DNA from: Patescibacteria group bacterium
GTDB taxonomy: Bacteria; Patescibacteriota; Microgenomatia; UBA10105; UBA927
Assembly (NCBI GenBank): GCA_018821245.1
Contig: JAHJMO010000026.1
Location: 15,518 to 79,517 of the forward strand
Length of the DNA stretch: 64,000 bases
Reading direction: 5' to 3'
The translations under genes and the position numbers were made by a program. The notes beneath the pieces are model-generated. The model was not told where the DNA came from and did no database searches. It saw nothing but the letters and a program-made list of their open reading frames with translations. Shown one piece after another: positions 17,436 to 37,169 of the stretch. Within the stretch, counting starts at the first letter, position 1; each line of letters starts with the position of its first letter.

Positions 17436-17497
17436 TATATAATACGTGACAGAAGAAAGGATATTGAGCGCCGGTTTATGCAGGCAATACGGATGCC

Positions 17498-18268
17498 ATG
17501 ACGATAGCAGATCCACGTATTCAGAAACGCAGCCAACCCAAAGAAACTGTTATTTTTGCCGCAGGACAGCTTCAGGGACAGCGAGATCTTCAGGAGGACC
17601 GGTTCCTCAATTTCAGCGATGAGTGTTTCGTCATAGCAGATGGGGTAGGAGGGATGCCGCATGGGGAGGTTGCGGCAACTATCGCCTGTGAGACAGCCAT
17701 CTGGGGGTATAAGCATATTCGGCAACGGCGTTGCTATTGGTTGAACAAAAAGCAGTTTATGCATAGGATTTTCCGTTCGACAAATTTGGCTGTCTGGCAG
17801 AAACACCGGGAAACAGGATTTGGAGACGGACTAGCCTCTACTCTTCTTGTGCTGATTGTCGGCGCAGAGACTCTGTGGATAGGTTCAGCGGGCGACAGCA
17901 ATGCATTTTTCTTTCGTAACGGCATGGTTCAGAAGCTCACTCATGAGGATGTTGATGCAGTTGGAAATCTTACAAAGGCACTGGGATTGAAGCGTTTGGG
18001 GCTCATGCCGCAGTTTATCAGGGAAGATTTTTTTGTACATGATGTCATTCTTTTGGCAACCGATGGAGTTTCTGATTATGTTACGACAAACGATTTGATG
18101 ATGATTATGTCCTCGGCAGGTTCAACGGCGGAAACTGTCAAAAGCGCAGTTGACTCTCTCATTCAGATTGCCGAGGAAAACGGTAGCAAAGACAATATGA
18201 CGGCTTGTTTGATCAAGCGGGCGTCCGTTGTGGGGCAATCTGTATTATCTTCGGATTCCATGATATAG
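17498..18268 (+). CDS. PP2C-family Ser/Thr protein phosphatase
   Basis: ADGVGG, GDSNAFF and ATDGVSD metal-binding Asp motifs of PPM phosphatases; divergent from the PBP pair. Confidence 0.8.
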   Translation: MTIADPRIQKRSQPKETVIFAAGQLQGQRDLQEDRFLNFSDECFVIADGVGGMPHGEVAATIACETAIWGYKHIRQRRCYWLNKKQFMHRIFRSTNLAVWQKHRETGFGDGLASTLLVLIVGAETLWIGSAGDSNAFFFRNGMVQKLTHEDVDAVGNLTKALGLKRLGLMPQFIREDFFVHDVILLATDGVSDYVTTNDLMMIMSSAGSTAETVKSAVDSLIQIAEENGSKDNMTACLIKRASVVGQSVLSSDSMI

Positions 18269-19800: not shown

Positions 19801-20469
19801 TTACGCTTTAAAAATATCGGATTGTAGTTTTTTCGCTTCTTCCAAAAAGAATTTTTCCATTTCATGTCTGTCAAAAGGCACAATCATTCTCGGGATGTCT
19901 TTCAAAACTACGACTTGAGTAAACGTTTGTCCAAGCTGAATCGGATCGATGTGCCAATCGATTTTCGCTTTAGCCAGCGAGATCATCTTTTTTAAGTCAA
20001 AATCTTTGTCTTTCATGATAAAAAAGAGATCAACAAAGTCTCTGTCTCTGGCGTGGGTATAGATCGTATGGATTTTATTTGCCGTGATATCTTCCAGGCT
20101 GTCTATTTCCAACCCTTTCCATGTGCCGCCTTTCTGTATGCGGGGAAAAGGATAATAATTGAAATCAACTTTCAACTGGACATGAGGAAGTTGAAAGACA
20201 TATGAATACAGTCCTAAATACCGTTTAAATGCAATTTCTTTTGCGCCTAATTTTTTTCCGGCAAGCGCGACAAATTTATTGATGCTTGCTATATGAATTT
20301 CCTGATGTTCCGAAAAAAGATCGATATCTTCGGATTCTCTATGGTGGAGATAAAATTCCGAAAGGACCGTACCGCCCGTCCAATAAAACCGCTTTCGGAT
20401 GTACGGTTCGTTTACGACAAGTTCCAAAAATTTCTTATGATGTCTTTTGAGGATGGAGTTTTTCCCCAT
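19801..20469 (-). CDS. AbiEii/AbiGii-like nucleotidyltransferase toxin (type IV TA/abortive-infection family)
   Basis: FYWTGGTVLSEFYLHHRESEDIDLFS matches the DUF1814/AbiEii hallmark (GGTAL ... RxSxDxD); AT-rich (about 36% GC) unlike neighbouring guaA. Confidence 0.55.
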   Translation of the reverse strand: MGKNSILKRHHKKFLELVVNEPYIRKRFYWTGGTVLSEFYLHHRESEDIDLFSEHQEIHIASINKFVALAGKKLGAKEIAFKRYLGLYSYVFQLPHVQLKVDFNYYPFPRIQKGGTWKGLEIDSLEDITANKIHTIYTHARDRDFVDLFFIMKDKDFDLKKMISLAKAKIDWHIDPIQLGQTFTQVVVLKDIPRMIVPFDRHEMEKFFLEEAKKLQSDIFKA

Positions 20470-24607: not shown

Positions 24608-24871
24608 ATGCAACTACAATTCATGACTACGATTACCACAAAAGGACAGGTGACGATACCGGAGTCGGTACGTCGAGCATTGGACGTGAGCGTTGGAGAC
24701 AAAGTGGCCTTTGTTCGTGTGGAGAGAGCGAGTAAGGAAGCCACCATTCGAATTATTTCCACAAGCGTCGTTGATAAACTCGCCGGTTCGTTAAAGAACG
24801 CAGTACCCTATACACCCCAAGCGAAGGTACGAAAGATTCTTGCCAGAGAACGTGCGAAACGATATACATGA
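24608..24871 (+). CDS. vapB: AbrB/MazE/SpoVT-family antitoxin (VapB-like)
   Basis: TKGQVTIPESVRRAL..GDKV swapped-hairpin DNA-binding motif; 4-nt overlap (ATGA) with the downstream PIN gene. Alternative ATG at 24623. Confidence 0.7.
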   Translation: MQLQFMTTITTKGQVTIPESVRRALDVSVGDKVAFVRVERASKEATIRIISTSVVDKLAGSLKNAVPYTPQAKVRKILARERAKRYT

Positions 24872-25269
24872 AAACTACGCAGGCGGTCCTTTTAGACACA
24901 AACGTCATTCTTCGATTTTTTCGTGAAGATCATCCCGAACATTTCAGGCGTGTAAAAAACCTATTTCAACAAGCGGAGAAAGGAATGATATTCTGTTATA
25001 TAGATCCTGTAGTTTTTGCAGAAGTGGTTTGGACACTGGCGTCATTTTATAAAGTAAACCGTTCTGAAATTACAACGAAGCTAGAAACACTTTTGGCACA
25101 GAAATGGATGGTCAACGAGCATAAGCAAACACTCCTTTCTGCGCTCTATCAGTATCAAGAAACAAATTTGGATTACATTGACTGTTGGCTTCTGGCAGTT
25201 TCGGAGGAATATGCTATCCCTATAGAAACATTTGATAAGAAATTGCAAAAACTCGTTCATGCATTGTGA
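24868..25269 (+). CDS. vapC: PIN-domain ribonuclease toxin (VapC-like)
   Basis: LLDTNVIL (first acidic residue), further conserved D/E positions, 133 aa; coupled to the upstream antitoxin. Confidence 0.8.
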   Translation: MKTTQAVLLDTNVILRFFREDHPEHFRRVKNLFQQAEKGMIFCYIDPVVFAEVVWTLASFYKVNRSEITTKLETLLAQKWMVNEHKQTLLSALYQYQETNLDYIDCWLLAVSEEYAIPIETFDKKLQKLVHAL

Positions 25270-25858: not shown

Positions 25859-26427
25859 AACATATATTACGAATGCTTGTTATCGTTATTGTATTCCTTT
25901 TTGTTCTGTTTGTTTCCGGAGTTGCCGGGGGGTCTGTCTCTGCGGTAGACACAACTCCAGTAGCGACCCAGGCGACAAGCGCGCAAGGCGCCAAAGAATA
26001 TTTTCTTCCCTACCCGGGTATCCTCCCTGACCATCCTTTATACAAGATAAAGCTAGTGCGCGATTGGATTTTAGAACGGATCATCGTAGACCCGATACGA
26101 AAAACAGAATTTTACATTCTTCAGGGTGATAAGCGCCTCAACATGGGGATTGCTCTTGTGGAAAAAGGAAACAGCGCGCTCGCTGGTGAAGTCATAAGTC
26201 AATCGGGAAACTTCATGGAACAAGCCATGCATACCCTCACTTCTATAAAGACTGCCGGTCGGGAAGTCCCTCTATATGTTTTGGAACATATGGAGAGTGC
26301 TCTCGTAAAACATAATGACGTATTAGAAACCATGCGGGTAAATCAAAGCGGCTCTGCAGAGAGCGTTATTATAGATGCACAGAAACACATACAGGCACTC
26401 CGGCAGGACATTGCAAAAGTCAGGTAG
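25855..26427 (+). CDS. Secreted/membrane-anchored hypothetical protein (DUF5667-like)
   Basis: N-terminal TM/signal anchor; YFLPYPGILPDHPLYKIK motif resembles DUF5667 proteins; overlaps the HD gene by 4 nt. Confidence 0.4.
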   Translation: MKHILRMLVIVIVFLFVLFVSGVAGGSVSAVDTTPVATQATSAQGAKEYFLPYPGILPDHPLYKIKLVRDWILERIIVDPIRKTEFYILQGDKRLNMGIALVEKGNSALAGEVISQSGNFMEQAMHTLTSIKTAGREVPLYVLEHMESALVKHNDVLETMRVNQSGSAESVIIDAQKHIQALRQDIAKVR

Positions 26428-26750
26428 GGAGCAAAAGACGGGGACAGAAAACACTTAATTTGTGGAAAAACATTGGTTTCCGAACACAAAAATTATTCCC
26501 CGGTTTGGCAATATCGCTCCGTTGTCATTTCCAACATTACATTCTCCGTAGTATTCCCTCAAACTATAACAGGTCGAGGCTAAGAATAGACCATGAAAGG
26601 TTTTGATATAGAAATTGCCAGTTGACGCCGCTTATTTAGTGTCTTAGGATGTTTAGTGGCACCACCTATAGCGTTTTAGTTTTCATGCTTCACCAGGTAC
26701 AGTAGTCGCGTTTTCGGGTGTTATAACGAAGTGAAGCATGATTTTTATTC

Positions 26751-27197
26751 ATGAAATGTCCATATTGCAATCATAACGACACTGACGTTATCGAGACGCG
26801 CGACAGCGAGGATCTGCGAGTTACCAGAAGGAGGAGGTACTGCGCGAAATGCGAAAAAAGGTTTACCACGTATGAACGGATTGAAAGTGTTCCGTTGACG
26901 GTTATCAAAAAGGACGAGCGCAGAGAAACATTTGACAGAGAAAAGCTTAAGCGAGGTATTTTGAGAGCCAGCGGTAAGACAAAAATTACAGCAGTTGACG
27001 TGGACCGCATCGTTGACGAAGTTGAAAGAGAGCTGATTTCCGGAGACTCAACCGAAGTAAAAAGCAAGCAGATTGGGCAATTAGTAGCCAAGAGGCTCAA
27101 GAAATTGGATAAAATTGCCTACATTAGATTTGCCAGCGTGTTTCGTCGTTTTCTGGACATAGAAGATTTTGAAAAGGAAGTGAAAAAATTGCTGTAA
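26751..27197 (+). CDS. nrdR: Transcriptional repressor NrdR
   Basis: MKCPYCNHNDTDVIETR...YCAKCEKRFTTYERIE zinc ribbon followed by an ATP-cone. Confidence 0.95.
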   Translation: MKCPYCNHNDTDVIETRDSEDLRVTRRRRYCAKCEKRFTTYERIESVPLTVIKKDERRETFDREKLKRGILRASGKTKITAVDVDRIVDEVERELISGDSTEVKSKQIGQLVAKRLKKLDKIAYIRFASVFRRFLDIEDFEKEVKKLL

Positions 27198-27225
27198 GCA
27201 ATTTTTTCATGGTGAGAATTTACGT

Positions 27226-29343
27226 ATGGTAAAAAAGACAATTACCAAAATTAAAAAGCGAAGCGGTCGGATTGTTAAGTTTAATCCGCTAAAAATCGTC
27301 AACGCGATTGAAAAGGCATTTAAGGCTATTGGTGAAAAGGATGGGGCAAGAGTCAAGGTATTGGCAGACAAAGCTGTCAAGAAACTTGAAGAGCGGTACG
27401 ATGGGAAGATTATTCCTCAGGTTGAAGAGATCCAAAATATTATTGAAGAGGTCTTAATGCAACACTGCCATTATGATGTGGCTCGGGCCTATATTTTATA
27501 CAGAGATCTTAAGAATCGCGTTCGTGATATTCACTCTTTGATTGACTCGGACGAACTCGTCGGCGATTATCTTTCCAAACTTGATTGGCGCGTCCGGGAA
27601 AATTCCAACATGGCCTATTCTCTTCAGGGGTTAAACAATCATGTCTCCTCGGTGGTTTCTGCCAATTATTGGCTTAACAAGATTTATCCCCCTCAGATTA
27701 GACAAGTCCATGTTGATGGCGATCTTCATATTCATAATTTACAGATGTTGGCAGCCTATTGCTGTGGTTGGGATTTAAAGGATCTTTTAGTCGGGGGTTT
27801 CGGGGGAGTTCCTGGCAAGATTGAGTGTAAACCGCCAAAGCATTTTCGGACTACATTAGGGCAGTTGGTTAATTTTTTTTATACGCTTCAGGGGGAAATT
27901 GCCGGCGCGGTGGCAGTTTCTAATTTTGATAGCCTTCTCGCACCTTTTATCGCCTTTGATGGTCTTTCCTATTCAGAAGTAAAACAATCTCTTCAAGAAT
28001 TTATTTTTAACATGAATGTCCCCACCAGGGTAGGTTTTCAAACGCCCTTTTCTAATGTTACCCTTGATCTTATTATTCCTGACTTTTTGGCCAAAGAACC
28101 GGTGATTATCGGAGGCATTCCACAAGGTAAAACGTATGAAGAGTTTCAAAAAGAAGTTGATGTATTCAACAAAGCCTTTGCCGAAGTGATGCTTGAAGGA
28201 GATGCGAAGGGGCGAGTTTTTACTTTTCCCATTCCCACCTATAGTATAACCCGCGATTTTAATTGGGATAATCCGATTTATAAAGGAATTTGGGAAATGA
28301 CCCGCAAATACGGCATTCCTTATTTTTCCAATTTTGTCAATTCGGATATGAAACCGGAAGATGTCAGGAGTATGTGCTGCCGGTTGAGATTGTCAACCAA
28401 AGAACTTCAACATCGGGGAGGAGGGCTTTTTGGCGCTAATCCGTTGACTGGAAGCCTTGGTGTCGTAACTCTTAATTTACCAAGGATTGGTTATCTCGCT
28501 AAAACGAAAAAAGAATATTTTGAGAAACTTTCTCACTTGATGGACCTGGCCAAAGAAGCCCTGCTTCTCAAAAGGACAGTAGTGGAGAAGTTTACCGAAG
28601 AAGGACTTTATCCGTACTCCAAAGTGTATTTGGGGGGAGTTAAAGGCCGCTTCGGCGAATATTGGAAAAATCACTTCAACACCATTGGTTTAATTGGTAT
28701 GAACGAATCGCTTCTTAACTTTATGAACAAGAATATCGGCGAGGAGGAGGGACGGGTCTTTGCAGAAGAAATTCTGGATTTTATGCGGACTAAACTTTTA
28801 ATATATCAAAAAGAAACTGACCAGATGTTTAATCTGGAAGCCACGCCTGCCGAGGGGACTTCTTATAATTTGGCCAGACTTGACAAGAAACTGTACCCTA
28901 AGATTATCTGTGCTAATGAAAAGGAAATCGGCAAAGATCATGCAGAACCTTTTTATACTAATTCAACACATCTGCCGGTTAATTTTACCGATGATATTTT
29001 TCAAGCTCTTGACCTTCAAGATAACCTCCAGACAAAATATACCGGCGGAACGGTTTTCCATGGATTTTTAGGGGAAAGCTTGCCGGATACGGTCGCCGTT
29101 AAAACCATGGTAAAAAAAATTGCCGAGCATTATCACCTTCCTTATTATACCTTAACCCCCACCTTTAGCGTTTGTCCCGGTCACGGTTATCTTAAAGGGA
29201 AACAGGATACATGTCAGGAGTGCGGCAAAACGTGTGAGGTTTGGTCAAGAATTGTTGGCTACTTACGACCGGTTGTTCAGTGGAATGTTGGGAAACAGGT
29301 GGAATTTGCAGAAAGGAAGACTTACCGGATTAAAACAACCTAA
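27226..29343 (+). CDS. nrdD: Anaerobic ribonucleoside-triphosphate reductase (class III) NrdD
   Basis: N-terminal ATP-cone; C-terminal Zn-ribbon CPGHGYLKG...CQECG and glycyl-radical motif RIVGYLRPV. Confidence 0.9.
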   Translation: MVKKTITKIKKRSGRIVKFNPLKIVNAIEKAFKAIGEKDGARVKVLADKAVKKLEERYDGKIIPQVEEIQNIIEEVLMQHCHYDVARAYILYRDLKNRVRDIHSLIDSDELVGDYLSKLDWRVRENSNMAYSLQGLNNHVSSVVSANYWLNKIYPPQIRQVHVDGDLHIHNLQMLAAYCCGWDLKDLLVGGFGGVPGKIECKPPKHFRTTLGQLVNFFYTLQGEIAGAVAVSNFDSLLAPFIAFDGLSYSEVKQSLQEFIFNMNVPTRVGFQTPFSNVTLDLIIPDFLAKEPVIIGGIPQGKTYEEFQKEVDVFNKAFAEVMLEGDAKGRVFTFPIPTYSITRDFNWDNPIYKGIWEMTRKYGIPYFSNFVNSDMKPEDVRSMCCRLRLSTKELQHRGGGLFGANPLTGSLGVVTLNLPRIGYLAKTKKEYFEKLSHLMDLAKEALLLKRTVVEKFTEEGLYPYSKVYLGGVKGRFGEYWKNHFNTIGLIGMNESLLNFMNKNIGEEEGRVFAEEILDFMRTKLLIYQKETDQMFNLEATPAEGTSYNLARLDKKLYPKIICANEKEIGKDHAEPFYTNSTHLPVNFTDDIFQALDLQDNLQTKYTGGTVFHGFLGESLPDTVAVKTMVKKIAEHYHLPYYTLTPTFSVCPGHGYLKGKQDTCQECGKTCEVWSRIVGYLRPVVQWNVGKQVEFAERKTYRIKTT

Positions 29344-29349
29344 GACCTC

Positions 29350-30063
29350 ATGCTTATCAAAGGCCTACAAAAAACAACCTTGCTCGATTACCCTGGAAAA
29401 GTTTCCTGTATCGTGTTTGTCGGCGGTTGCAACTTCCGCTGCCCCTTTTGTCATAATTCTGATTTAGTTTTGGAGCCACAAAAATTACCCACTATCGCAG
29501 AAGATGATTTTTTTAACTTTATAAAGACAAGAGTCGGGCTTTTAGATGGGGTGGTTATCACCGGTGGCGAGCCCACTCTTTACTCTGATCTTTCCCGGTT
29601 TATGAAAAAAGTAAAAGGCTTGGGTTTTTTGGTTAAATTGGATACCAATGGGAGTAATCCGGAGATGGTGAAAGAATTGATAAAAGATAGATTAGTGGAT
29701 TATATAGCAATGGACCTGAAGGGGCCGCTAAAGAAATATTACAAATATATTGGACAAAGTCAAAATCACGGTCGTAATGCAGAACATATTGAGACGAGTA
29801 TAAAGATTATTTCGGAAAGCAGAGTGGAGTTTGAATTAAGGACCACGGTGGTGCCGACGCTACACACGAAGAAAGACTTACTAGAGATGGCAAAGCAGCT
29901 AAATAATATTGGTAATGTTAAGTGGTATCTTCAGCAATTCAGTCCAAAACAATGTTTGGATCCAGGGTTTGAGAAAATTAAGCCATACCCAAAGAGTTTT
30001 TTTGAGGATTCACTATCCGAGATTAAAAAATATTTGTCGACAACATTTTTAAGGGGTGTTTAG
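29350..30063 (+). CDS. nrdG: Anaerobic RNR activating enzyme NrdG (radical SAM)
   Basis: CNFRCPFCHN radical-SAM cluster motif; directly follows nrdD. Confidence 0.85.
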   Translation: MLIKGLQKTTLLDYPGKVSCIVFVGGCNFRCPFCHNSDLVLEPQKLPTIAEDDFFNFIKTRVGLLDGVVITGGEPTLYSDLSRFMKKVKGLGFLVKLDTNGSNPEMVKELIKDRLVDYIAMDLKGPLKKYYKYIGQSQNHGRNAEHIETSIKIISESRVEFELRTTVVPTLHTKKDLLEMAKQLNNIGNVKWYLQQFSPKQCLDPGFEKIKPYPKSFFEDSLSEIKKYLSTTFLRGV

Positions 30064-30097
30064 TCTGACACAAGGGTCGGCCTCCTCGTATTTGTGA

Positions 30098-30123
30098 CAA
30101 ATAAACAAATATACAAATAAATG
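30098..30123 (+). repeat. Tandem octamer array CAAATAWA x3, intergenic nrdG-pduO
   Basis: caaataaa caaatata caaataaa. Confidence 0.6.
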
Positions 30124-30159
30124 ACTTAATAACAAAACGGTTGAATGATTTGTAGATTT

Positions 30160-30714
30160 ATGAATATCTATACCCGCGCCGGCGACAAAGGATTTACTTC
30201 TATTTTTGGTGGGAAGCGAGTTTTGAAATGCCACGAGCTTGTGGATACATATGGGTTCATAGACGAGCTAAATAGTTGGGTGGGGTTGATAATTTCACAA
30301 CTTAATAAAAACGATGAAACCCGATTTTTTGTAGAAGTTCAGAAGCAACTGCTTGCTATTGGAAGTAGTCTGGCCGGCTGGAAGGGTTTGAAAAAAGAAT
30401 TAGTAGAAAAACAAATCAAGAAGATGGAGATCAAAATAGATTTGATGGAAAAAACTCTTCCTACGATAAAAAATTTTGTTCTTCCAGGCGGATCACGCGT
30501 GGGATCAATAGTTCATATTGCCAGAAGTATTTGCCGTAGGGCCGAACGACAAACCGTTTCCTTGGCACAGAAACAAATAATACAACCGGAGATCATCAAA
30601 TACCTGAATCGCCTGTCGGACTTGCTTTTTGTTTTCGCACGGTTTATAAACAGTCAGGGCGGCGTCACCGAAGTCGTTTGGTCTGGAGACGCGTCCACAG
30701 AAAAGAAACGGTAA
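30160..30714 (+). CDS. PduO-type ATP:cob(I)alamin adenosyltransferase
   Basis: N-terminal IYTRAGDKGFTSIFGG matches the PduO/MMAB ATR signature (iYTrtGDkGeTsl); about 185 aa. Confidence 0.8.
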   Translation: MNIYTRAGDKGFTSIFGGKRVLKCHELVDTYGFIDELNSWVGLIISQLNKNDETRFFVEVQKQLLAIGSSLAGWKGLKKELVEKQIKKMEIKIDLMEKTLPTIKNFVLPGGSRVGSIVHIARSICRRAERQTVSLAQKQIIQPEIIKYLNRLSDLLFVFARFINSQGGVTEVVWSGDASTEKKR

Positions 30715-30715
30715 A

Positions 30716-30870
30716 GATAAGAGGAATCCAGTGTAAATCTGGGGCTGTGCCGCAACGGTAGCCCTGTCGATGTCGTTTTACGACATAATGACCGGGGAGC
30801 CCGGAACTCATCTTTACCAAAAACAATCCCGAGCAGGAGAACTACGCGTAAGCGGAGAATGGAAAAATCT
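30716..30870 (+). promoter_or_regulatory. Cobalamin (B12) riboswitch aptamer
   Basis: GAGGAATCCAGTGTAAATCTGGGGCTGTGCCGCAACGGTAGCC aligns almost base-for-base with the conserved core of the E. coli btuB leader (GGGAAUCCAGUGCGAAUCUGGAGCUGACGCGCAGCGGUAAGG). Downstream helices GTCGTTTTACGAC and CCGGGGAGCCCGG, and a B12-box-like AATCCCGAGCAGGAG. Confidence 0.7.
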
Positions 30871-30943
30871 ACAGAATCACTAACGTACGAATAGGCAACG
30901 AGTATTCGTTCGTAGAGGTCTTTCGTAGATTTTGACATAGGAT

Positions 30944-30973
30944 CCCTCTCGGGAAAGAGAGGGTTTTTTATTT
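30944..30973 (+). terminator. Intrinsic terminator (likely riboswitch expression platform)
   Basis: CCCTCTC-GGGAAA-GAGAGGG followed by TTTTTTATTT; ends 9 nt before the ATG at 30982 with the SD AGAGGA inside/after the U-tract. Confidence 0.7.
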
Positions 30974-30981
30974 AGAGGAAT

Positions 30982-32925
30982 ATGCCATTTGCACGCGCAG
31001 AACTACCGGGTATGGGGCCACAATCATCAGGATGTTCCTGTTCTGTTGATACCGGTCTTTGGGTGAACTTATATAACGAAATTTATGATGATGTAGCAGA
31101 AAAAATGAAACAGACAGGATTGTTTTTTAACGAAGAACACGTAAAACACGAAGCGAGTAAACGATTCATGTTGCATGTTTACCTGCCAGACATAAAGAGT
31201 GTTGTTAAAGAGTGGAGAGGCGACAAGGTGATGGACGGGACAGTATATGACGTGACTAATCATGGACTGGAGATAGTATGGAAAGGTGAGAGAATAACTG
31301 CGGAGTATGAATTTGTTCTGAAGCGTCGCTCAATGGGCCTGGAAGATCCAGATGAGACACGCACGTTCTACAGAGCGCAAAAGAAAATTCTCGCCTCACC
31401 GAATGCAGATGTGTGGTTTCCGGTACACGAAAAAGCAGACGGAGAAGACCGCATACGGTATGCGGCCCACTGGGTGCGGGACGGCAATCGCGTACGCGCG
31501 GAAACGCACCGTATAGCAGGTGACCGGGATTTAAGCCTAAAAGAAGCGCGTCAGGTCATACGAGAAAAGGTCGGCTCATATGCGCCGCATGAGACAAGCA
31601 AGACAGATGCGTCGTTTGTGTTTTCCAACATTCAGGAGGCGGATCATAGGAGGAAAACCTTGCAAGCGCAATATGATCACAACATAAAACAGCAGAAAGA
31701 TATCATTTCACCACAGGATATTGACATAAAGATGGTTCACGTCGAAAAAATATACAACCCCAACCGTCAAGTTGATGCGTATCCGGCCGAACATCGGGTA
31801 ATTCGTGATGCAGCCGACACTTTATTACATTCTTCTCAACGTATAACAAAAGACACTACGACAGCGAGTGTAGCGTTTGCTTCTTTTTTGCGTGAATCGT
31901 TCAGGAAAAAAAAGAGAATTGATGCCCGAAGTACCATAAAAAATATTGAGAGCAGGCGACAGCAGAAAGCAAAAGAAAAGTTCATATCACAGAAAATTTT
32001 GTCGTTCTTTCGTCAATCGCAACCAGAAAGACCGGAAGGAAAAATTCGCCACAAGGTAGCCCACTGGATGCGTCGTTTAGAAAACAACGTGGACACACAG
32101 CATGTTGTTCATGCCGTAGCGAACATGTCAGCTGGTATAAGAAAGAAAATTGTGTTGTTGAGTGATATAGTTTCAAAATTTTTTCCTTGGACGAGGGGCG
32201 CGACAGGAACATTGGAAGGCGGAGCTGCAAAACGCAGGACACAATCTATAAAGGAGAAACAAGGAGAGAGGGAAAGAGAGTTTAAAAAAGCCGGTTGGTT
32301 TATAAAGCTGTTCAAAAGAGAGAACGATAAGCAAGCAGTAGAGGAACATTGGAATATTATCTGCAAAGTGCAACCGTTGAAGGCAGAAAAAATATCGCCG
32401 TTTTACACAATGCTTCGTGCGCTGGCTGCAAAGCTTCAAATATTTCCCGTCGCTTCCAAGCGGGAGGGAATAGAAATTACCACACAACAGGTCAAAGAAA
32501 AACAAGAGCTGATGTCAGAAGAGATGCTTCCGGAAGACAATCACCTTGTTCGGGAGAAGTCAATAGATATGTTTGAAACAACAAGCGACTTTTTTGTTTC
32601 AGCTCTCTTATGGTATGTATTGTATGAAGCAGATGTAGTCAATTTCGACGCGCAGAACCCCAGTCTTGTTGATGAGAAAAATATTAATGTATCGATACAT
32701 CAATATAAGACAGAAAAATTGGTGCAGAGTACAGCAGGTGGAAATTGGATTCTGTTTTCTATTATTTGGTATCTGGCGATGATCCGCGAACAAGGGAAAA
32801 GACAAGGCGTGAAACAAAAGAAAAAAGGAGGATCGAAGAAAAAGACGATTATTTGGGATAGAAACACAACAAACCCACCGGCGATACTTCCGCAACACAA
32901 TATAATATTTGTTTTTCGTTCGTGA
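30982..32925 (+). CDS. Hypothetical 647-aa protein, highly charged, two C-terminal TM helices
   Basis: Long ORF immediately after the riboswitch and terminator; K/R/E/Q-rich; hydrophobic segments FFVSALLWYVLY and NWILFSIIWYLAMI near the C-terminus; no known domain recognised. Confidence 0.5.
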   Translation: MPFARAELPGMGPQSSGCSCSVDTGLWVNLYNEIYDDVAEKMKQTGLFFNEEHVKHEASKRFMLHVYLPDIKSVVKEWRGDKVMDGTVYDVTNHGLEIVWKGERITAEYEFVLKRRSMGLEDPDETRTFYRAQKKILASPNADVWFPVHEKADGEDRIRYAAHWVRDGNRVRAETHRIAGDRDLSLKEARQVIREKVGSYAPHETSKTDASFVFSNIQEADHRRKTLQAQYDHNIKQQKDIISPQDIDIKMVHVEKIYNPNRQVDAYPAEHRVIRDAADTLLHSSQRITKDTTTASVAFASFLRESFRKKKRIDARSTIKNIESRRQQKAKEKFISQKILSFFRQSQPERPEGKIRHKVAHWMRRLENNVDTQHVVHAVANMSAGIRKKIVLLSDIVSKFFPWTRGATGTLEGGAAKRRTQSIKEKQGEREREFKKAGWFIKLFKRENDKQAVEEHWNIICKVQPLKAEKISPFYTMLRALAAKLQIFPVASKREGIEITTQQVKEKQELMSEEMLPEDNHLVREKSIDMFETTSDFFVSALLWYVLYEADVVNFDAQNPSLVDEKNINVSIHQYKTEKLVQSTAGGNWILFSIIWYLAMIREQGKRQGVKQKKKGGSKKKTIIWDRNTTNPPAILPQHNIIFVFRS

Positions 32926-32943
32926 TATGATGAAGATATTCTT

Positions 32944-33405
32944 ATGAACAATCTGCCCGATGATACTCAAATTCGCGCGAACAATACTCCGCCGGGGACT
33001 AACAACACGGCTTCGCAGACGGCGCCATCCGCCGGAGGCGCGTTTCTTAAGGAAGTTGAGAGGCCTTCCGCGGTTTCTTCTGAGGTGTCGATACGCCCCG
33101 CCACAGCAGAGACAGAATTACCGAAAGAGGTAGCGTCGGCAGGAGTGACGTTGAGACCCACAAGTGTCCCGATTCCGCCGAAGCTATCGCAAATGGGTGT
33201 TAAGCCTGCGGGAAACAATGTACCCACGCAGCCCAAGGCAACAACTGTCGCCCTGCCGCTTACCGATGACCAGATCGCTCAAGGGCTCCATCAGGGAATA
33301 ATGAGCTCATGGAGATGGCTTGCACAGTGGTGTCTTCGCCGCCTGAAACAATTACACGTTGGACTGAAAGCAATGCACGGGAAGTTAACAAGGGTTCGCG
33401 CGTAA
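32944..33405 (+). CDS. Hypothetical Pro/Thr/Ala-rich protein
   Basis: Low-complexity 153-aa ORF with a C-terminal amphipathic W/R-rich helix; stop TAA 3 nt before the next ATG (translationally coupled). Confidence 0.4.
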   Translation: MNNLPDDTQIRANNTPPGTNNTASQTAPSAGGAFLKEVERPSAVSSEVSIRPATAETELPKEVASAGVTLRPTSVPIPPKLSQMGVKPAGNNVPTQPKATTVALPLTDDQIAQGLHQGIMSSWRWLAQWCLRRLKQLHVGLKAMHGKLTRVRA

Positions 33406-33407
33406 CC

Positions 33408-35756
33408 ATGTCAGAACAATTATTAGATCTTACCTATCGTTTGGAGATGTTTGGAATAAGTCTCCTGTTTATCGCCTTGTTTCTGGCGGGGATGGCGCTT
33501 CTGGCCTACGGCGTGTTTTTGCTGTGGAAATACCGCGACAGAGAAAAGCAATCGCTTGAGTACGCGCTTCTTCAGGTGGCGGTGCCGCGCGACAATGAAA
33601 TAAAAATAGACGCATCCGAGCAAATGTTTGCAAGTCTGCATGGTATATATCACGGTGGTTTTTGGTCGTTTCTTACGCCGTCTCCGCATCTGTCGTTTGA
33701 GATTGTGGCGAAAAAAGAAGATATCCGGTTCTATATTTCTGTTCCGCGCAAATTTACGGATTTGGTCGAAAAACAAATTCACGGCGCTTATCCCGGAGCG
33801 GATATAAGGACAGTGGATGAGTATTCTATTTTTTCCGAAAAAGGCAATGTAGCCTTTGCAGCACTGCGACTGAAAAACCCAGACTATTTGCCTATCCGCA
33901 TCTTTCGGGATCTGCCGGTTGATCCTCTTTCGTCTATTACATCTGTTCTTGCCAAAATGCAGGAGGGTGAAGGAGCGGCAATTCAAATACTCGTCCAGCC
34001 CACGGGAGGAAAATGGCGAAACATAGGAAGGTCATATATTTCCAAGGTGAAGAAAAATGAGGCAAACCCGGAAAAAGCAAGCTTTAAAGTGGATCAAAAG
34101 TCCCTGGAGGCGATAGAACAAAAAACCAGCAAACCTGGCTTCAACGTCGTTGTCAGGATCGTTGTGTCTTCTGGGACGAAGGAATCGGCAGACATTCATT
34201 TGGAGAACATCCTTTCCTCGTTCTACCAGTTTACATCGGATCATAATGCATTTACCAAGGTCAAGCACCCCATAAAAAAATTATTCATGCTGGATTTTAT
34301 CTACAGGTATTTTCCGATTTGGAATTTTCCGTTCTTTCGTCAATATAGCGTGCTTAATAGTGATGAGTTGGCTACGGTATACCATTTGCCGAATAAATTC
34401 GTAGAAACGCCGCACGTTTTTTGGTTGAACGCCAAGCGTGCGCCAGCCCCATCACAAATCCCCTCAAGCGGGCTGTTTATAGGTGCTTCGCAATACCGAG
34501 GAGTTGACCGCCCGATTTACGTAGGCGACGACGACCGAAGGCGCCATACATATATCATTGGTAAGACAGGAACAGGTAAAACACAACTTCTGGAAGAGTT
34601 GGTTATGCAGGATATTTCCGCTGGTCGGGGGGTAGCTGTCATAGATCCGCATGGAGACCTGATCGACGGAATATTGTGCCGTATGCCGCCGGAGCGGGCA
34701 GAAGATGTAATCTATTTTGACCCGTCCGACACCGAGCGACCCATGGGGCTTAACATGCTTGAGTCATACACAGAGGAACAGAAGCATTATGTGGTAACGT
34801 CGATTGTCGGGCTTATGTACAAGTTGTATGATCCGATGAAAACAGGCATCATCGGCCCGCGTTTTGAGCACGCCATCAGGAATGCGATGCTCACGGTTAT
34901 GTGTGAGCCGGGGAATACATTTGTCGAAGTAGTCCGGGTGCTCACAGACAGTTCATTCGTTCAGGAATTGCTTCCCAAAGTGGACGATCCGGTTATTCGC
35001 CGTTATTGGACTGACCAGATTGCGCAAACCGCTGATTTTCATAAGTCCGAGGTATTGGACTATATCGTTTCGAAATTCGGCCGGTTCGTGACCAATAAAC
35101 TCATGCGCAACATCATCGGCCAGTCTAAATCATCATTCGATTTCCGTAAAGTTATGGATGAGGGCAAGGTGTTGCTGGTAAATTTGGCAAAGGGGAAAAT
35201 CGGTGAGGAGAATAGCAATTTCTTGGGTCTTATTATCGTTCCAAAGATTCTGATAGCCGCCATGAGCAGGCAGGAAGTGGCAGAAGAAAAACGGCGCGAC
35301 TTTTACCTCTATGTCGATGAGTTTCAGAATTTCGCAACGCCGGACTTTGCCCAGATTCTTTCAGAGGCCAGAAAGTATAAGCTCAACCTGATCGTTGCTA
35401 ACCAGTTTATCGGTCAGATGGAGGAAGAAGTAAAGAATGCTGTATTTGGTAACGTTGGGACACTCATCGCGTTCCGCGTGGGTGTGACGGACGCTAACTA
35501 CCTGCAGCATGAGTATCAGCCGACGTTTAATGAAATCGACCTTATCAATATCGATAAGTACAACGCATATGTCAAAACTATCGTGAATAATGAACCGGTT
35601 AAACCGTTTAGCCTGGATCTTACGAAAGACATGGGGAGGATCTATCAAACCCGCAATCCGCAGGTAGCCAAAGCAATTATTCAACTGTCGCGCCTGAAGT
35701 ACGGCAGGTCCAGGGAGTTGATCGAGGCGGAAATTGCGCATCGCGCGCGTTTATAG
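33408..35756 (+). CDS. VirD4/TraG/TraD-family (type IV coupling protein-like) membrane ATPase
   Basis: N-terminal TM helix; Walker A IGKTGTGKT; AVIDPHGDL (TraG/TrwB-type); Walker B FYLYVDEF; C-terminal TraD/TraG-like region. Confidence 0.6.
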   Translation: MSEQLLDLTYRLEMFGISLLFIALFLAGMALLAYGVFLLWKYRDREKQSLEYALLQVAVPRDNEIKIDASEQMFASLHGIYHGGFWSFLTPSPHLSFEIVAKKEDIRFYISVPRKFTDLVEKQIHGAYPGADIRTVDEYSIFSEKGNVAFAALRLKNPDYLPIRIFRDLPVDPLSSITSVLAKMQEGEGAAIQILVQPTGGKWRNIGRSYISKVKKNEANPEKASFKVDQKSLEAIEQKTSKPGFNVVVRIVVSSGTKESADIHLENILSSFYQFTSDHNAFTKVKHPIKKLFMLDFIYRYFPIWNFPFFRQYSVLNSDELATVYHLPNKFVETPHVFWLNAKRAPAPSQIPSSGLFIGASQYRGVDRPIYVGDDDRRRHTYIIGKTGTGKTQLLEELVMQDISAGRGVAVIDPHGDLIDGILCRMPPERAEDVIYFDPSDTERPMGLNMLESYTEEQKHYVVTSIVGLMYKLYDPMKTGIIGPRFEHAIRNAMLTVMCEPGNTFVEVVRVLTDSSFVQELLPKVDDPVIRRYWTDQIAQTADFHKSEVLDYIVSKFGRFVTNKLMRNIIGQSKSSFDFRKVMDEGKVLLVNLAKGKIGEENSNFLGLIIVPKILIAAMSRQEVAEEKRRDFYLYVDEFQNFATPDFAQILSEARKYKLNLIVANQFIGQMEEEVKNAVFGNVGTLIAFRVGVTDANYLQHEYQPTFNEIDLINIDKYNAYVKTIVNNEPVKPFSLDLTKDMGRIYQTRNPQVAKAIIQLSRLKYGRSRELIEAEIAHRARL

Positions 35757-35813
35757 CCGGTCGTTGCCAAACTCCTTCTTTACAAAATTTACCAATGCGG
35801 TATTCTACATTTC

Positions 35814-37169
35814 ATGATTGTTTATATCAGCAACGTATCAGAAGACGTATGGCCGTTTATTAGCTCCATATCCCAGGCGCAGGCGCGTGAGTTTGAAATT
35901 CAGGAGAATGCCAATCTGGCAGAGCGCGACCTTTTTTCGTTCCCTGGCGAGGATCACTTTCTTTTCGTCTCTCCCCGGTCTATCAGCCGGACCTTTCTGG
36001 ATTATTACATAGGATTATTCGGTAATAAGCATCTTTCTGTCTCAACGCCCAAGGTCCATACAGGAGTTATTTGTGAGGATATTCTGGCGGATGACGATGT
36101 CATGGATGAAATAGCGATTGCCGCAAACGGGGCCAAGCGATTAACACTTGTTTCCTACACCGCCTCACCACAGTTTTTGGCGCTTGTGTCGGAACTTCGA
36201 AAGAAAGGTTTTAACGTGTACACTCCTGAAGCACCGGAGCAGGAGGACGCATGGACGGTAAACTTTTTCGGCAGCAAGTCCGGGATACGTCAGCTTGCGC
36301 AGAAAAGTGCGGCAGTTGAACCGGACTTCGTCATGGCGGACGGCTTGGTTTGTTCGGGTATAGGAGACGCGGCGAAAATCGCAGCAAAAAAATATATTCG
36401 CGAAAAAGGCGTTGTCGTCAAAACCAATAAAGGGCATTCAGGCGCAGGAGTACTCATTTTCCGGCAGGGAGATTTGCCCGAGAATTACGATGAGTGCGAG
36501 GAACAGATAAAAACCACGCTTTCCCGTGACGGGTATTGGGAAAAATTCCCAATTGTCATTGAGAGTTTTGTAAAAGAAAACCGTGCGGTGGCCGGAGGAT
36601 TTCCAAATGTTGAGTTTAAGATTGCCAAACACGGTGAAGTGGAGTTCCTCTACTACTGCGCGCTTAGGGTGACGCCGGAGGGGGTATTTAAGGGGATAGA
36701 AATTCAAGATGAAGCAGTGTCGGATAAGCTCGGAGCACGCATGATGGATACGGGATTCTATGTAGGCGAGCAATATGCCTCTTACGGATATCGGGGATAT
36801 TTTGACGTGGACTTTGTCGCCAGTCGAAACGGACAACTGTATGTGACGGAGTCCAATACGCGGCGGACAGGGGGAACGCACGTGTATGAAACAACAAAAG
36901 CTCTATTTGGGAAAAACTTTATGACCGAGGTATATACATTGTCAAACAATATCTATCCATTGCCGAAACGGAAACAGATTTTTTTGGAAAATCTTTTAAA
37001 CGCGCTTTCGCCGATACTGTTTGACAAAAAAAGCAAAGAAGGTTTGATCGTCGCTTCTGAGCACATCTTAAACCAGGGGGCTTTTTCCTACATCATCTAC
37101 GGCCAGACGAAAAAGCGCGCTCTTGCCATCGAGGAAAAAATGGAAGAGATTGTACAAAAGTTAGTCTAA
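35814..37169 (+). CDS. ATP-grasp fold protein
   Basis: KGHSGAGV (P-loop-like), ...E-x-N-x-R (VTESNTRRTGG) catalytic loop typical of ATP-grasp ligases; 451 aa. Confidence 0.45.
   Translation: MIVYISNVSEDVWPFISSISQAQAREFEIQENANLAERDLFSFPGEDHFLFVSPRSISRTFLDYYIGLFGNKHLSVSTPKVHTGVICEDILADDDVMDEIAIAANGAKRLTLVSYTASPQFLALVSELRKKGFNVYTPEAPEQEDAWTVNFFGSKSGIRQLAQKSAAVEPDFVMADGLVCSGIGDAAKIAAKKYIREKGVVVKTNKGHSGAGVLIFRQGDLPENYDECEEQIKTTLSRDGYWEKFPIVIESFVKENRAVAGGFPNVEFKIAKHGEVEFLYYCALRVTPEGVFKGIEIQDEAVSDKLGARMMDTGFYVGEQYASYGYRGYFDVDFVASRNGQLYVTESNTRRTGGTHVYETTKALFGKNFMTEVYTLSNNIYPLPKRKQIFLENLLNALSPILFDKKSKEGLIVASEHILNQGAFSYIIYGQTKKRALAIEEKMEEIVQKLV

What the first reader, a model, noticed from the sequence alone, without database searches (positions are those of the whole stretch)
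30160..30714. PduO-type ATR encoded as the last gene of the nrdR-nrdD-nrdG (class III, B12-independent RNR) operon
An AdoCbl-forming adenosyltransferase is co-transcribed with an anaerobic RNR that uses a glycyl radical, not AdoCbl. No AdoCbl-dependent enzyme (NrdJ, mutases, dehydratases) is present in the window. The only visible AdoCbl consumer is the adjacent riboswitch. This suggests the ATR may primarily feed a regulatory ligand pool or salvage scavenged corrinoids.
Basis: inference. Interest (0 to 1): 0.5.

Follow-up and report, generated by a model that had tools for sequence, protein, structure and literature searches.

The report
B12 adenosyltransferase left beside swapped-in anaerobic RNR
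A real vitamin-B12-activating enzyme gene sits behind a B12-independent ribonucleotide reductase because, in this tiny-genome bacterium, the usual B12-dependent reductase at that spot was replaced by a laterally acquired B12-independent cassette while the activating enzyme and a B12 riboswitch stayed behind.

Summary
Window 30160-30714 encodes a full-length PduO-type corrinoid adenosyltransferase, 96 nt behind nrdR-nrdD-nrdG. A cobalamin riboswitch (30698-30829) starts at its stop codon. No AdoCbl enzyme is in the 64 kb.

The pairing is best explained by history, not by a new function.
- In every other close relative whose upstream sequence is available, pduO follows the B12-dependent class II reductase: nrdR-nrdJ-pduO, often followed by putative B12-uptake genes. 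This resembles the known Lactobacillus nrdJ-cbrS-cbrT-pduO cluster.
- Flanking genes and pduO place the window among these nrdJ loci. Its nrdD and nrdG instead match a more distant Gottesmanbacteria clade.
- Against another strain, synonymous differences drop from saturation in nrdR (pS 0.89) to 0.15-0.20 in nrdD and nrdG. This marks the left edge of an exchanged cassette.

pduO is intact and under purifying selection (dN/dS 0.23), so it is probably still used. The riboswitch most likely gates read-through into a fast-evolving 647-aa protein of unknown fold.

The more distant clade couples nrdDG to a non-homologous CobA-type adenosyltransferase plus riboswitch-controlled uptake genes. The client of AdoCbl in these genomes therefore remains open. 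Whole genomes could not be searched.

The parts
26751..27197 (+). nrdR, the transcriptional repressor of RNR genes. It is of the clade-A (nrdJ-locus) type.
   Evidence: PF22811 plus PF03477. It is 79-85% identical to NrdR of the nrdJ-pduO loci L003, L004 and L006, but 55-58% to the nrdDG-cobA loci. Against L097 its pS is 0.89, which is saturated.
27198..27225 (.). Left recombination breakpoint of the nrdDG cassette, inferred to lie in or next to this 28-nt spacer.
   Evidence: Between window and L097, synonymous difference drops from 0.89 in nrdR to 0.19 in the first 100 codons of nrdD.
27226..29343 (+). nrdD, the class III (glycyl-radical, B12-independent) ribonucleoside-triphosphate reductase. 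It is of the clade-B type and laterally acquired.
   Evidence: PF03477 plus PF13597 at 632 bits. It is 81-83% identical to clade-B NrdD, where within-clade-B identity is 83-87%. It is 96% identical to L097, with pS 0.148.
29350..30063 (+). nrdG, the radical-SAM activase of NrdD. It is part of the same cassette.
   Evidence: PF04055 plus PF13353. It is 58-64% identical to clade B, where within-B identity is 58-66%. Against L097 its pS is 0.204.
30064..30159 (+). nrdG-pduO spacer, holding the pduO leader.
   Evidence: No terminator or + strand promoter is predicted in it. It carries GACAAATAAaCAAAT and ATTTGTAG motifs that are also present in the nrdJ-pduO spacer of L004 and in L002. This similarity is weak evidence only.
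30160..30714 (+). pduO, a PduO-type ATP:cob(I)alamin adenosyltransferase. This is the finding.
   Evidence: PF01923 at 1e-51 and TIGR00636 at 182.5 bits. It keeps all 45 invariant columns of a 57-sequence family alignment. It is 60-65% identical to nrdJ-linked PduO of L003, L004 and L006. dN/dS against L002 is 0.23.
30698..30829 (+). Cobalamin riboswitch aptamer. Its P1 helix is 30711-30717 paired with 30811-30817, and the 5' strand of P1 contains the pduO stop codon TAA at 30712-30714.
   Evidence: RF00174 at 38.1 bits against a gathering score of 31.5. Covariation is seen in 15 of 28 pairs. Syntenic copies are found in L002, L008, L020 and L091-L094.
30818..30981 (+). Expression platform. 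Either 30827-30837 pairs with 30945-30954 (anti-terminator), or 30944-30950 pairs with 30957-30963 followed by a T-run to about 30970 (terminator).
   Evidence: This is the best terminator-like site in 26300-33500. The two alternative folds lie within 2 kcal/mol of each other, at -92.4 and -90.5. The leader is 96% identical to L002. The AUCCCGAGCAGG element is shared with L008.
30982..32925 (+). X647, a 647-aa protein of unknown function and the first gene behind the riboswitch. It belongs to a small, fast-evolving family.
32944..33405 (+). 153-aa conserved ORF that always precedes the DUF8128 ATPase gene.
   Evidence: 53% identical to the 140-aa ORF of L006. Present in all compared loci.
33315..35756 (+). 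DUF8128, a VirD4/TraG-like ATPase. It serves as the conserved right-hand anchor of the locus.
   Evidence: PF26449 and weak T4SS coupling-protein hits. It is 81-83% identical to clade A and 69-70% to clade B.

Best explanation
pduO here is a working corrinoid adenosyltransferase. It was inherited vertically as the third gene of a conserved Patescibacteria (Gottesmanbacteria-like) locus: nrdR, then nrdJ (the AdoCbl-dependent class II reductase), then pduO, then a variable slot that often holds B12-binding or uptake genes, then a 150-aa ORF and a DUF8128 ATPase.

In the window's lineage, nrdJ was replaced in place by an nrdD-nrdG cassette from a more distant Gottesmanbacteria clade. The left edge of that cassette lies between nrdR and nrdD. 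The cassette has since been exchanged again between strains. The adenosyltransferase therefore sits behind a B12-independent reductase for historical reasons.

It is still kept by selection. It would adenosylate scavenged corrinoids. The riboswitch, whose P1 helix starts at the pduO stop codon, would sense the product or a related cobalamin. It would then terminate transcription at 30944-30970, before the next gene, X647.

Shown here: the gene identities, the synteny, the phylogenetic discordance, the breakpoint in synonymous divergence, and the purifying selection.

Inferred only: co-transcription, the off-switch mechanism, the riboswitch ligand, and the existence of an AdoCbl-using enzyme elsewhere in the genome.
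For: **1. Synteny**
- L003, L004 and L006 share both sets of flanking genes with the window; L008, L011 and L012 share at least nrdR and the DUF8128 ATPase. All six carry a class II reductase (Ribonuc_red_lgN, lgC and TSCPD) exactly where the window has nrdDG.
- Of the 80 metagenomic PduO loci, 7 have NrdJ directly upstream and none has NrdD. Only the window and its duplicate L001 have NrdD.

**2. Discordance between flanks and cassette**
- NrdR, DUF8128, the cytidylate-kinase-like protein and PduO place the window in clade A. Identity is 79-85%, 81-83%, 73-80% and 60-65% respectively.
- The same flanks are 55-58%, 69-70% and 65-69% identical to clade B.
- Yet NrdD (81-83%) and NrdG (58-64%) are as close to clade B as clade-B members are to each other (83-87% and 58-66%).

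**3. Breakpoint**
- Window against L097: pS is 0.75-0.89 for aldehyde dehydrogenase, CMK, HD, DUF5667 and nrdR.
- pS is 0.148 for nrdD and 0.204 for nrdG.

**4. pduO is intact and constrained**
- All family-invariant residues are kept.
- dN/dS against L002 is 0.23.
- Its distance to outgroup PduOs (46-47% identity) is about the same as for nrdJ-linked orthologues (47-53%).

**5. Precedent**
- The nrdJ-cbrS-cbrT-pduO cluster of L. delbrueckii (PMC5997447).

**6. Riboswitch**
- It passes the Rfam gathering score, shows covariation and is syntenic in eight loci. In clade B it directly precedes the DUF4430 and DUF6580 genes.
- A terminator and an alternative anti-terminator are both predicted.
Against: - No AdoCbl-dependent client enzyme was found, so 'still in use' rests on selection signatures only.
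- In six clade-B loci, nrdDG is followed by a CobA-type adenosyltransferase gene whose start overlaps the nrdG stop in four of them and abuts it in two, and then by riboswitch-controlled uptake genes. The pairing of an adenosyltransferase with a class III reductase is therefore stable in another lineage, which pure historical accident does not explain.
- The right edge of the original nrdJ-to-nrdDG replacement is not mapped.
- Contig L002 starts in the spacer and L097 ends in it, so no second strain shows the nrdG-pduO junction directly.
- The direction of the swap is inferred from distribution and identity matrices, not from rooted trees.
Confidence: 0.75

Rival explanations
1. The genome has no AdoCbl-dependent enzyme at all. 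The adenosyltransferase exists mainly to turn scavenged corrinoid into the ligand of the adjacent riboswitch, so B12 acts as a signal that controls the downstream genes.
For: - No AdoCbl enzyme or B12 transporter is in the 64 kb.
- The riboswitch begins at the pduO stop codon in the window and in L002, and immediately after it in L008, so producer and sensor are physically coupled.
- pduO is under purifying selection although nrdJ is gone.
- Clade B also keeps an adenosyltransferase and a riboswitch next to nrdDG.
Against: - Only about 5-10% of a typical genome of this group was seen.
- NrdJ and NrdDG often coexist in one genome (PMC545781; bioRxiv 10.1101/772582).
- In clade B the riboswitch controls putative B12-uptake genes, which makes sense only if B12 is consumed.
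- The ligand preference of the riboswitch is unknown.
- The X647 family also occurs behind pduO without a detectable riboswitch, in L004 and L011.
Confidence: 0.12
2. There is real functional coupling. Selection keeps an adenosyltransferase in the NrdR-controlled reductase operon whichever reductase class is present. One reason could be that a second, AdoCbl-dependent reductase elsewhere is co-regulated by NrdR. Another could be that B12 handling is tied to dNTP supply. History alone would then not be the reason for the pairing.
For: - Two non-homologous adenosyltransferase types occupy the same position after the reductase: PduO in clade A and CobA in clade B.
- In four of six clade-B loci (L092, L094, L095, L096) the cobA start overlaps the nrdG stop by 4 nt; in L091 and L093 the two genes abut.
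- The window-L002 pduO divergence (pS 0.22) and the window-L097 nrdD and nrdG divergences (pS 0.15-0.20) are similar, which would fit one shared block if L097 and L002 represent one lineage. That is unproven.
Against: - No mechanism links AdoCbl to glycyl-radical reductases (established knowledge).
- No NrdR-box consensus match was found near these genes.
- None of 80 metagenomic PduO loci from other lineages has nrdD nearby.
- This reading is compatible with the best explanation rather than exclusive of it.
Confidence: 0.3
3. pduO is a decaying leftover with no current function.
For: - Its ancestral partner nrdJ is gone.
- The uptake genes DUF4430 and DUF6580, found in relatives, are absent from the window.
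- Its dN/dS of 0.23 is higher than for DUF8128 (0.04) and the ATP-grasp protein (0.07).
Against: - The ORF is full length and keeps every invariant family residue.
- dN/dS is well below 1.
- It is not accelerated relative to nrdJ-linked orthologues.
- The protein sequence is identical in four independent MAGs.
Confidence: 0.08
4. The direction is the reverse. nrdDG plus an adenosyltransferase is ancestral at this locus, and nrdJ replaced nrdDG in the other clade-A genomes.
For: Clade B (six loci) has nrdDG at the orthologous site.
Against: - nrdJ-pduO is found in clade A and in more distant lineages such as L012, L016 and L020, where NrdR is 59-63% identical. It is also found in Lactobacillus.
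- The window's NrdD and NrdG sit within clade-B diversity, not at the depth of its flanking genes.
- The cassette is demonstrably mobile.
Confidence: 0.08
5. The gene is misassigned. The protein is a PduO-fold protein with a function unrelated to corrinoids.
For: No activity has been measured, and no corrinoid enzyme is nearby.
Against: - It scores well above the cut-off of the equivalog-level model TIGR00636.
- The ATP-binding and FxLPGG/RRAER motifs align with L. reuteri PduO and human MMAB.
- It is flanked by a cobalamin riboswitch, and its orthologues lie next to nrdJ and B12-binding-domain genes.
Confidence: 0.03

Closest known systems
nrdJ-cbrS-cbrT-pduO cluster of Lactobacillus delbrueckii (Rodionov et al. 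2009; Santos et al. 2018, PMC5997447)
   Same: A PduO-type adenosyltransferase is clustered with a ribonucleotide reductase and B12-uptake components in a B12 auxotroph. The window's relatives L003 and L006 have nrdR-nrdJ-pduO-DUF4430-DUF6580. DUF6580 weakly resembles an ECF S-component.
   Different: In the window the reductase is class III (nrdDG), not nrdJ. The uptake genes are replaced by a riboswitch and an unknown 647-aa protein. nrdR heads the operon.
B12-riboswitch control of B12-independent isozymes, for example nrdDG in Desulfovibrio and Desulfuromonas (Rodionov et al. 2004, PMC545781)
   Same: The players are the same: a cobalamin riboswitch, nrdDG, and the logic of switching between B12-dependent and B12-independent reductases.
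   Different: In those genomes the riboswitch lies upstream of nrdDG and represses it when B12 is available, and nrdJ is known to be present. Here the riboswitch lies downstream of nrdDG-pduO, nothing B12-responsive precedes nrdDG, and the presence of nrdJ is unknown.
Riboswitch-controlled B12 uptake operons that include a PduO-type adenosyltransferase, such as B. subtilis btuFCD-yvqK (from my own knowledge; YvqK structure 1rty is the second-best PDB match)
   Same: A stand-alone PduO-type adenosyltransferase is associated with a cobalamin riboswitch and corrinoid salvage.
   Different: In B. subtilis the riboswitch precedes the operon that contains the adenosyltransferase gene. Here the adenosyltransferase gene is upstream of the riboswitch, in the reductase operon.
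Horizontal replacement of ribonucleotide reductase classes (general knowledge, e.g. Lundin et al. 2010)
   Same: One reductase class is replaced by another through lateral transfer.
   Different: Here the replacement is in place, within a conserved operon. Its left edge is mapped to a 28-nt spacer, and it leaves the cofactor-activating gene of the displaced enzyme behind.

Membership tests
PduO-type ATP:cob(I)alamin adenosyltransferase (PF01923 / TIGR00636) | Full-length match to the family models above their curated cut-offs | tested here: met
   PF01923 at 175.9 bits (cut-off 24), covering 1-170/171. TIGR00636 at 182.5 bits (cut-off 108.45).
PduO-type ATP:cob(I)alamin adenosyltransferase (PF01923 / TIGR00636) | Conserved motifs: the N-terminal ATP-binding T-x-x-G-D-x-G-x-T, the Phe of F-[IV]-L-P-G-G that displaces the lower ligand in L. 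reuteri PduO, and R-R-A-E-R. The roles of these motifs are from my own knowledge. | tested here: met
   YTRAGDKGFTS, NFVLPGG and CRRAERQ align column for column with 3ci1, 1rty and 36zl. The same positions are invariant in 57 relatives.
PduO-type ATP:cob(I)alamin adenosyltransferase (PF01923 / TIGR00636) | Catalyses adenosylation of cob(I)alamin, and forms a trimer with active sites at the subunit interfaces | not testable with these tools
   Needs a biochemical assay.
Class III (anaerobic) RNR system NrdD/NrdG | NRDD domain with a C-terminal glycyl-radical motif and Cys-rich Zn site, plus a radical-SAM activase with CX3CX2C | tested here: met
   PF13597 over 1-562/562. The C-terminus reads CPGHG...CQECGKTCEVWSRIVGYL, and NrdG contains CNFRCPFC.
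Cobalamin riboswitch (Rfam clan CL00101) | Reaches the Rfam gathering score, with the conserved core and B12 box | tested here: met
   RF00174 at 38.1 bits against 31.5. The conserved GCUGUGCCGCAAC and AGCCCGGAAC elements are present.
Cobalamin riboswitch (Rfam clan CL00101) | Helices supported by covariation in related sequences | tested here: met
   15 of 28 predicted pairs keep pairing through changes on both sides, across five syntenic copies. The sample is small.
Cobalamin riboswitch (Rfam clan CL00101) | Binds AdoCbl specifically, rather than MeCbl or AqCbl | not testable with these tools
   The peripheral P6 extension is reduced from 44 model positions to 10 nt. The syntenic copies in L091, L093 and L020 score best as RF01689 AdoCbl-II.
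nrdJ-pduO (AdoCbl-dependent RNR plus adenosyltransferase) gene cluster | A class II reductase gene adjacent to the adenosyltransferase gene | tested here: not met
   The window has nrdD and nrdG at that position, and there is no NrdJ-like sequence anywhere in the 64 kb. Orthologous loci in relatives do meet this feature.
   The genes are on the same strand with a 96-nt gap and no predicted terminator or promoter. There are no expression data.

The most novel reading that the evidence does not exclude
Gottesmanbacteria that carry only the class III reductase at this locus keep corrinoid adenosylation, a cobalamin riboswitch and, in clade B, uptake genes. These are the window lineage and at least six clade-B loci. 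They may keep these genes without having any classical AdoCbl enzyme. In that case AdoCbl would act purely as a sensed signal, for instance of host or community B12 status, controlling the genes behind the riboswitch. Alternatively, one of the unannotated riboswitch-linked families would be a new kind of B12-dependent or B12-handling protein. Candidates are X647, X667/X735, the 449-aa protein of L008 and the conserved 106-aa protein after cobA.
Probability: 0.12. Interest if true: 0.7.

Novelty: new variant of a known kind. Interest (0 to 1): 0.38.

Why it matters
- **Annotation and metabolic inference.** An 'odd' operon composition can be a scar of cassette replacement rather than a functional link. 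This is a useful caution when reading metabolism from gene neighbourhoods in Patescibacteria.
- **Recombination in reduced genomes.** The reductase class at a fixed chromosomal site is swapped by recombination among these very small genomes. The breakpoint here can be narrowed to a 28-nt spacer.
- **An open and testable question.** Seven or more genomes keep an adenosyltransferase next to a B12-independent reductase, using either of two unrelated enzyme families, together with a B12 riboswitch. What uses AdoCbl in these organisms is unknown. A simple whole-genome search of named assemblies would answer it.
- **Candidate B12-related proteins.** The riboswitch points to small uncharacterised protein families as candidates.

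Tried and rejected
- **Genome-contig scan with the PduO protein.** It returned only three unrelated loci. The window's genome is not in that collection, so no whole-genome search for nrdJ or other AdoCbl enzymes was possible.
- **Word-indexed homologue search for X647.** It found only three proteins. The full HMMER search was needed to define the family.
- **Fold searches of X647.**
  - No assignment was made.
- **X667/X735 of L092 and L093.** I considered whether these are the same family as X647. Neither tblastn nor an HMM detects a relation.
- **NrdR-box consensus search.** There was no match near nrdR, nrdD or pduO.
- **Joining contigs L097 and L002.** L097 ends after nrdG and L002 starts before pduO, but they do not overlap. 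Whether the L002 lineage has nrdDG upstream is unproven.
- **Riboswitch search in L003, L004, L006 and L011.**
  - Nothing was found at E up to 5 over the whole loci.
  - A 19-bit AdoCbl-like hit in L004 is not significant.
  - X647-family genes are therefore not always riboswitch-controlled.
- **PDB sequence searches with DUF4430 and DUF6580 proteins.** Both found nothing.
- **Literature searches on Patescibacteria or CPR B12 use.** They found nothing relevant.
Full report
**What is there**

On the + strand the window carries, in order:
- nrdR, 26751-27197 (Zn-ribbon plus ATP-cone);
- nrdD, 27226-29343 (ATP-cone plus NRDD at 632 bits, with the C-terminal motif SRIVGYL);
- nrdG, 29350-30063 (radical SAM, CNFRCPFC);
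- a 96-nt spacer;
- a 184-aa ORF at 30160-30714.

The 184-aa ORF matches Cob_adeno_trans end to end (E 1e-51). It also passes the equivalog-level model TIGR00636 PduO_Nterm, scoring 182.5 bits against a cut-off of 108.45. Its best solved relatives are corrinoid adenosyltransferases, including L. reuteri PduO, B. subtilis YvqK and human MMAB. The ATP-binding, FxLPGG and RRAER motifs are aligned with them.

Rfam places a cobalamin riboswitch at 30698-30829, scoring 38.1 bits against a gathering score of 31.5. Pfam scans of 58 ORFs of the window found no AdoCbl enzyme, B12 transporter or cob gene. The partial ORF at the 3' edge (63593-63997, -) and the antisense ORF over the riboswitch were not scanned. 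tblastn with NrdJ, CobA, DUF4430, DUF6580 and toroid queries also found nothing. Co-transcription is only plausible: no terminator or promoter is predicted in the spacer.

**Source**

The proteins are annotated 'Patescibacteria group bacterium'. The same PduO sequence occurs in four NCBI MAGs. The nearest named relatives are Candidatus Gottesmanbacteria.

**Synteny in relatives**

I looked up the contigs that encode the closest PduO homologues. L003, L004 and L006 share the same flanking genes:
- on the left: cytidylate-kinase-like, HD, DUF5667 (identified in L006; the corresponding ORFs of L003 and L004 have no Pfam hit and are 40-41% identical by tblastn) and nrdR;
- on the right: a roughly 150-aa ORF and a DUF8128 VirD4-like ATPase in all three, followed where the locus extends that far by NUDIX (L003, L006), TsaD, a cytidylyltransferase and VanW.

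L008, L011 and L012 were classified by tblastn only; they share nrdR, NrdJ, PduO and the DUF8128 ATPase in the same order.

In every one of these loci the gene between nrdR and pduO is a class II reductase (Ribonuc_red_lgN, lgC and TSCPD; 809-831 aa, or 1558 aa with two inteins). Among the 80 metagenomic PduO loci, 7 have NrdJ directly upstream and none has NrdD. Downstream of pduO, L003 and L006 carry DUF4430 and DUF6580 genes. DUF6580 weakly resembles an ECF S-component.

This matches a known arrangement, the nrdJ-cbrS-cbrT-pduO cluster of the B12 auxotroph L. delbrueckii (PMC5997447).

**Where the window's nrdDG comes from**

The closest NrdD homologues outside the window's own population (81-85% identical) lie in six other Gottesmanbacteria loci: L091-L096, which I call clade B. 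These are the orthologous chromosomal site, with PBP, aldehyde dehydrogenase, cytidylate-kinase-like, DUF5667 and nrdR on the left and DUF8128 on the right (NUDIX follows it in L091, L092 and L094; L095 ends before this point).

| Protein | Window vs clade A | Window vs clade B | Within clade B |
|---|---|---|---|
| NrdR | 79-85% | 55-58% | 78-85% |
| DUF8128 | 81-83% | 69-70% | 80-88% |
| CMK | 73-80% | 65-69% | 76-82% |
| NrdD | absent in clade A | 81-83% | 83-87% |
| NrdG | absent in clade A | 58-64% | 58-66% |

The flanking genes separate two clades, and the window belongs to clade A with L003, L004 and L006. Yet its NrdD and NrdG are as close to clade-B proteins as those are to one another. 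PduO itself follows the flanking genes. The reductase cassette therefore has a different history from the genes on both sides of it.

**A mapped breakpoint and ongoing exchange**

L097 is another clade-A-like strain. Its flanking proteins are as far from the window as any other clade-A member: NrdR 85%, CMK 76%, aldehyde dehydrogenase 69% and DUF5667 40% identical. Its NrdD, however, is 96% identical and its NrdG 87%.

| Gene (window vs L097) | pS |
|---|---|
| aldehyde dehydrogenase, CMK, HD, DUF5667, nrdR | 0.75-0.89 (saturated) |
| nrdD | 0.148 |
| nrdG | 0.204 |

The low value is already reached in the first 100 codons of nrdD. The left edge of the exchanged block therefore lies in or next to the 28-nt nrdR-nrdD spacer.

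Against L002, which begins just upstream of pduO, pS is 0.22 for pduO, 0.36 for the 153-aa ORF, 0.31 for DUF8128 and 0.38 for the ATP-grasp protein. For NUDIX it is 0.79. If L097 and L002 represent one lineage, the recently shared block would run from nrdD to the ATP-grasp gene, roughly 27226-37169. This is unproven, because the two contigs do not overlap.

**Is pduO still functional?**

- It keeps all 45 invariant positions of a 57-sequence family alignment.
- dN/dS against L002 is 0.23.
- Its distance to outgroup PduOs (46-47% identity) is about that of nrdJ-linked orthologues (47-53%).
- The sequence is identical in four MAGs.

A decaying relic is unlikely.

**The riboswitch and what it controls**

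The aptamer's P1 helix pairs 30711-30717 with 30811-30817. Its 5' strand contains the pduO stop codon. Across five syntenic copies, 15 of 28 predicted pairs show compensatory changes. The aptamer and its 150-nt leader are 96% identical between the window and L002.

The leader ends in the best terminator-like hairpin of the region: 30944-30963 followed by a T-run, 12 nt before the ATG of the next gene. An alternative pairing of 30827-30837 with the 5' arm of the terminator lies within 2 kcal/mol. That upstream element, AUCCCGAGCAGG, is conserved in L008. I infer a transcriptional off-switch that gates read-through from the nrd-pduO unit into the downstream genes.

Syntenic riboswitches occur:
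- directly after pduO in L002 and L008 (L008 is nrdR-nrdJ-pduO-riboswitch);
- between nrdJ and pduO in L020;
- between the adenosyltransferase gene and the DUF4430/DUF6580 genes in L091-L094, the four clade-B loci that were scanned.

The ligand preference is open. The P6 extension is short, and three of the copies score best as AdoCbl-II.

**The gene behind the riboswitch**

X647 (30982-32925) has no Pfam or NCBIfam match. It belongs to a family with only 33 representatives among 1.84 billion proteins. The family is also present after pduO in L004 and L011, where no riboswitch is detectable.

**What remains puzzling**

In clade B, nrdG is followed by a CobA/BtuR-type adenosyltransferase gene, which is unrelated to PduO. 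Its start overlaps the nrdG stop by 4 nt in four of the six loci and abuts it in the other two. After that come a riboswitch and, in the loci that extend far enough, DUF4430, an alpha/alpha-toroid protein in three of them (L091, L093, L094) and DUF6580.

So an adenosyltransferase stays next to the reductase whichever class the reductase is and whichever family the adenosyltransferase belongs to. The simplest reading is that these genomes have an AdoCbl client elsewhere. NrdJ and NrdDG do coexist in many bacteria (PMC545781; bioRxiv 10.1101/772582). I could not test this, because the window's genome is not in the searchable genome collection and context look-ups reach only 10 kb either side of a gene.

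**Verdict**

The feature is real. The odd pairing is best explained as an in-place replacement of nrdJ by a laterally acquired nrdDG cassette, inside a known kind of reductase-plus-B12-salvage locus. The adenosyltransferase and a B12 riboswitch were retained and are probably still in use. I rate the interest as moderate to low, and the novelty as a new variant of a known kind.

Noticed in passing
window 30982-32925; also L002 941-2875, L004 8866-10755, L011 8705-10570: X647 is a roughly 600-900 aa protein family with only 33 representatives among 1.84 billion proteins. It has a conserved N-terminal domain (often beginning with a GCxC motif; R159 is one of nine nearly invariant positions, the others being M1 and seven residues in the C-terminal element) and a conserved C-terminal W.L..IIWYLAMIRE.G...VIFA element. 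It evolves far faster than its neighbours and has no fold match.
   Followed up: partly
L091-L096 (e.g. L094 12898-16943): In a second Gottesmanbacteria clade, nrdG is followed by a CobA/BtuR-type adenosyltransferase gene (4-nt overlap in four loci, abutting in two). After it come a B12 riboswitch, DUF4430, an alpha/alpha-toroid protein (in L091, L093 and L094) and DUF6580. Toroid plus DUF4430 recalls the two domains of transcobalamin-like B12 binders; this is my own inference and was not tested.
   Followed up: partly
L093 13429-13749, L095 13385-13705, L094 13908-14228: A conserved 106-aa protein with no Pfam hit (MGNHERGSQ...GVDHGISGDYK...RMDY) lies between cobA and the riboswitch in three clade-B loci.
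   Followed up: no
L092 13960-15963, L093 13938-16145: A second family of large proteins with no Pfam match (667 and 735 aa, 41% identical to each other) is the first gene after the riboswitch and precedes DUF4430. It has no detectable similarity to X647, apart from a similar hydrophobic C-terminal ...VFAF motif.
   Followed up: partly
L008 10706-12055: In the nrdJ-pduO-riboswitch locus L008, the riboswitch is followed by a 449-aa protein with no Pfam match and a Cys-rich, zinc-ribbon-like C-terminus. It occupies the slot that X647 fills in the window.
   Followed up: no
window 32944-33405 and 33315-35756: A roughly 150-aa ORF followed by a DUF8128 VirD4/TraG-like ATPase forms an invariant gene pair at the right side of the locus in all relatives compared. 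Its function is unknown.
   Followed up: no
window 30654-30938 (- strand): A 94-aa ORF called as a gene in a public assembly (L001 4595-4879) lies antisense over the riboswitch. It is probably a spurious call.
   Followed up: no
window 24608-25269; 19801-20469: A MazE-like/PIN toxin-antitoxin pair is inserted between the cytidylate-kinase-like and HD genes, and is also present in L004. An AbiEii-type toxin gene lies further upstream.
   Followed up: no
L004 3240-7916; P0135, P0142, P0146, P0149, P0188, P0214: The NrdJ of L004 carries two inteins with LAGLIDADG domains (1558 aa). Several NrdD homologues are about 1020-1200 aa long, and three of them (P0135, P0146, P0214) carry annotated intein domains.
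   Followed up: no
L008 (CAZGOA010000004.1): This contig is titled 'uncultured Gammaproteobacteria bacterium', yet it carries the Patescibacteria-type locus (NrdR 78%, NrdJ 76% and DUF8128 77% identical to the relatives). It is probably mis-binned or mislabelled.
   Followed up: no
L092 and L093 (GCA_040960625.1, contigs of 788 kb and 602 kb); L091 and L095 (GCA_040961635.1): Each of these assemblies holds two different copies of the whole nrdR-nrdDG-cobA locus on separate contigs. Each bin probably mixes two genomes.
   Followed up: no
window 12897-17516 (- strand): Two tandem class A penicillin-binding protein genes (transglycosylase plus transpeptidase; 771 and 762 aa).
   Followed up: no
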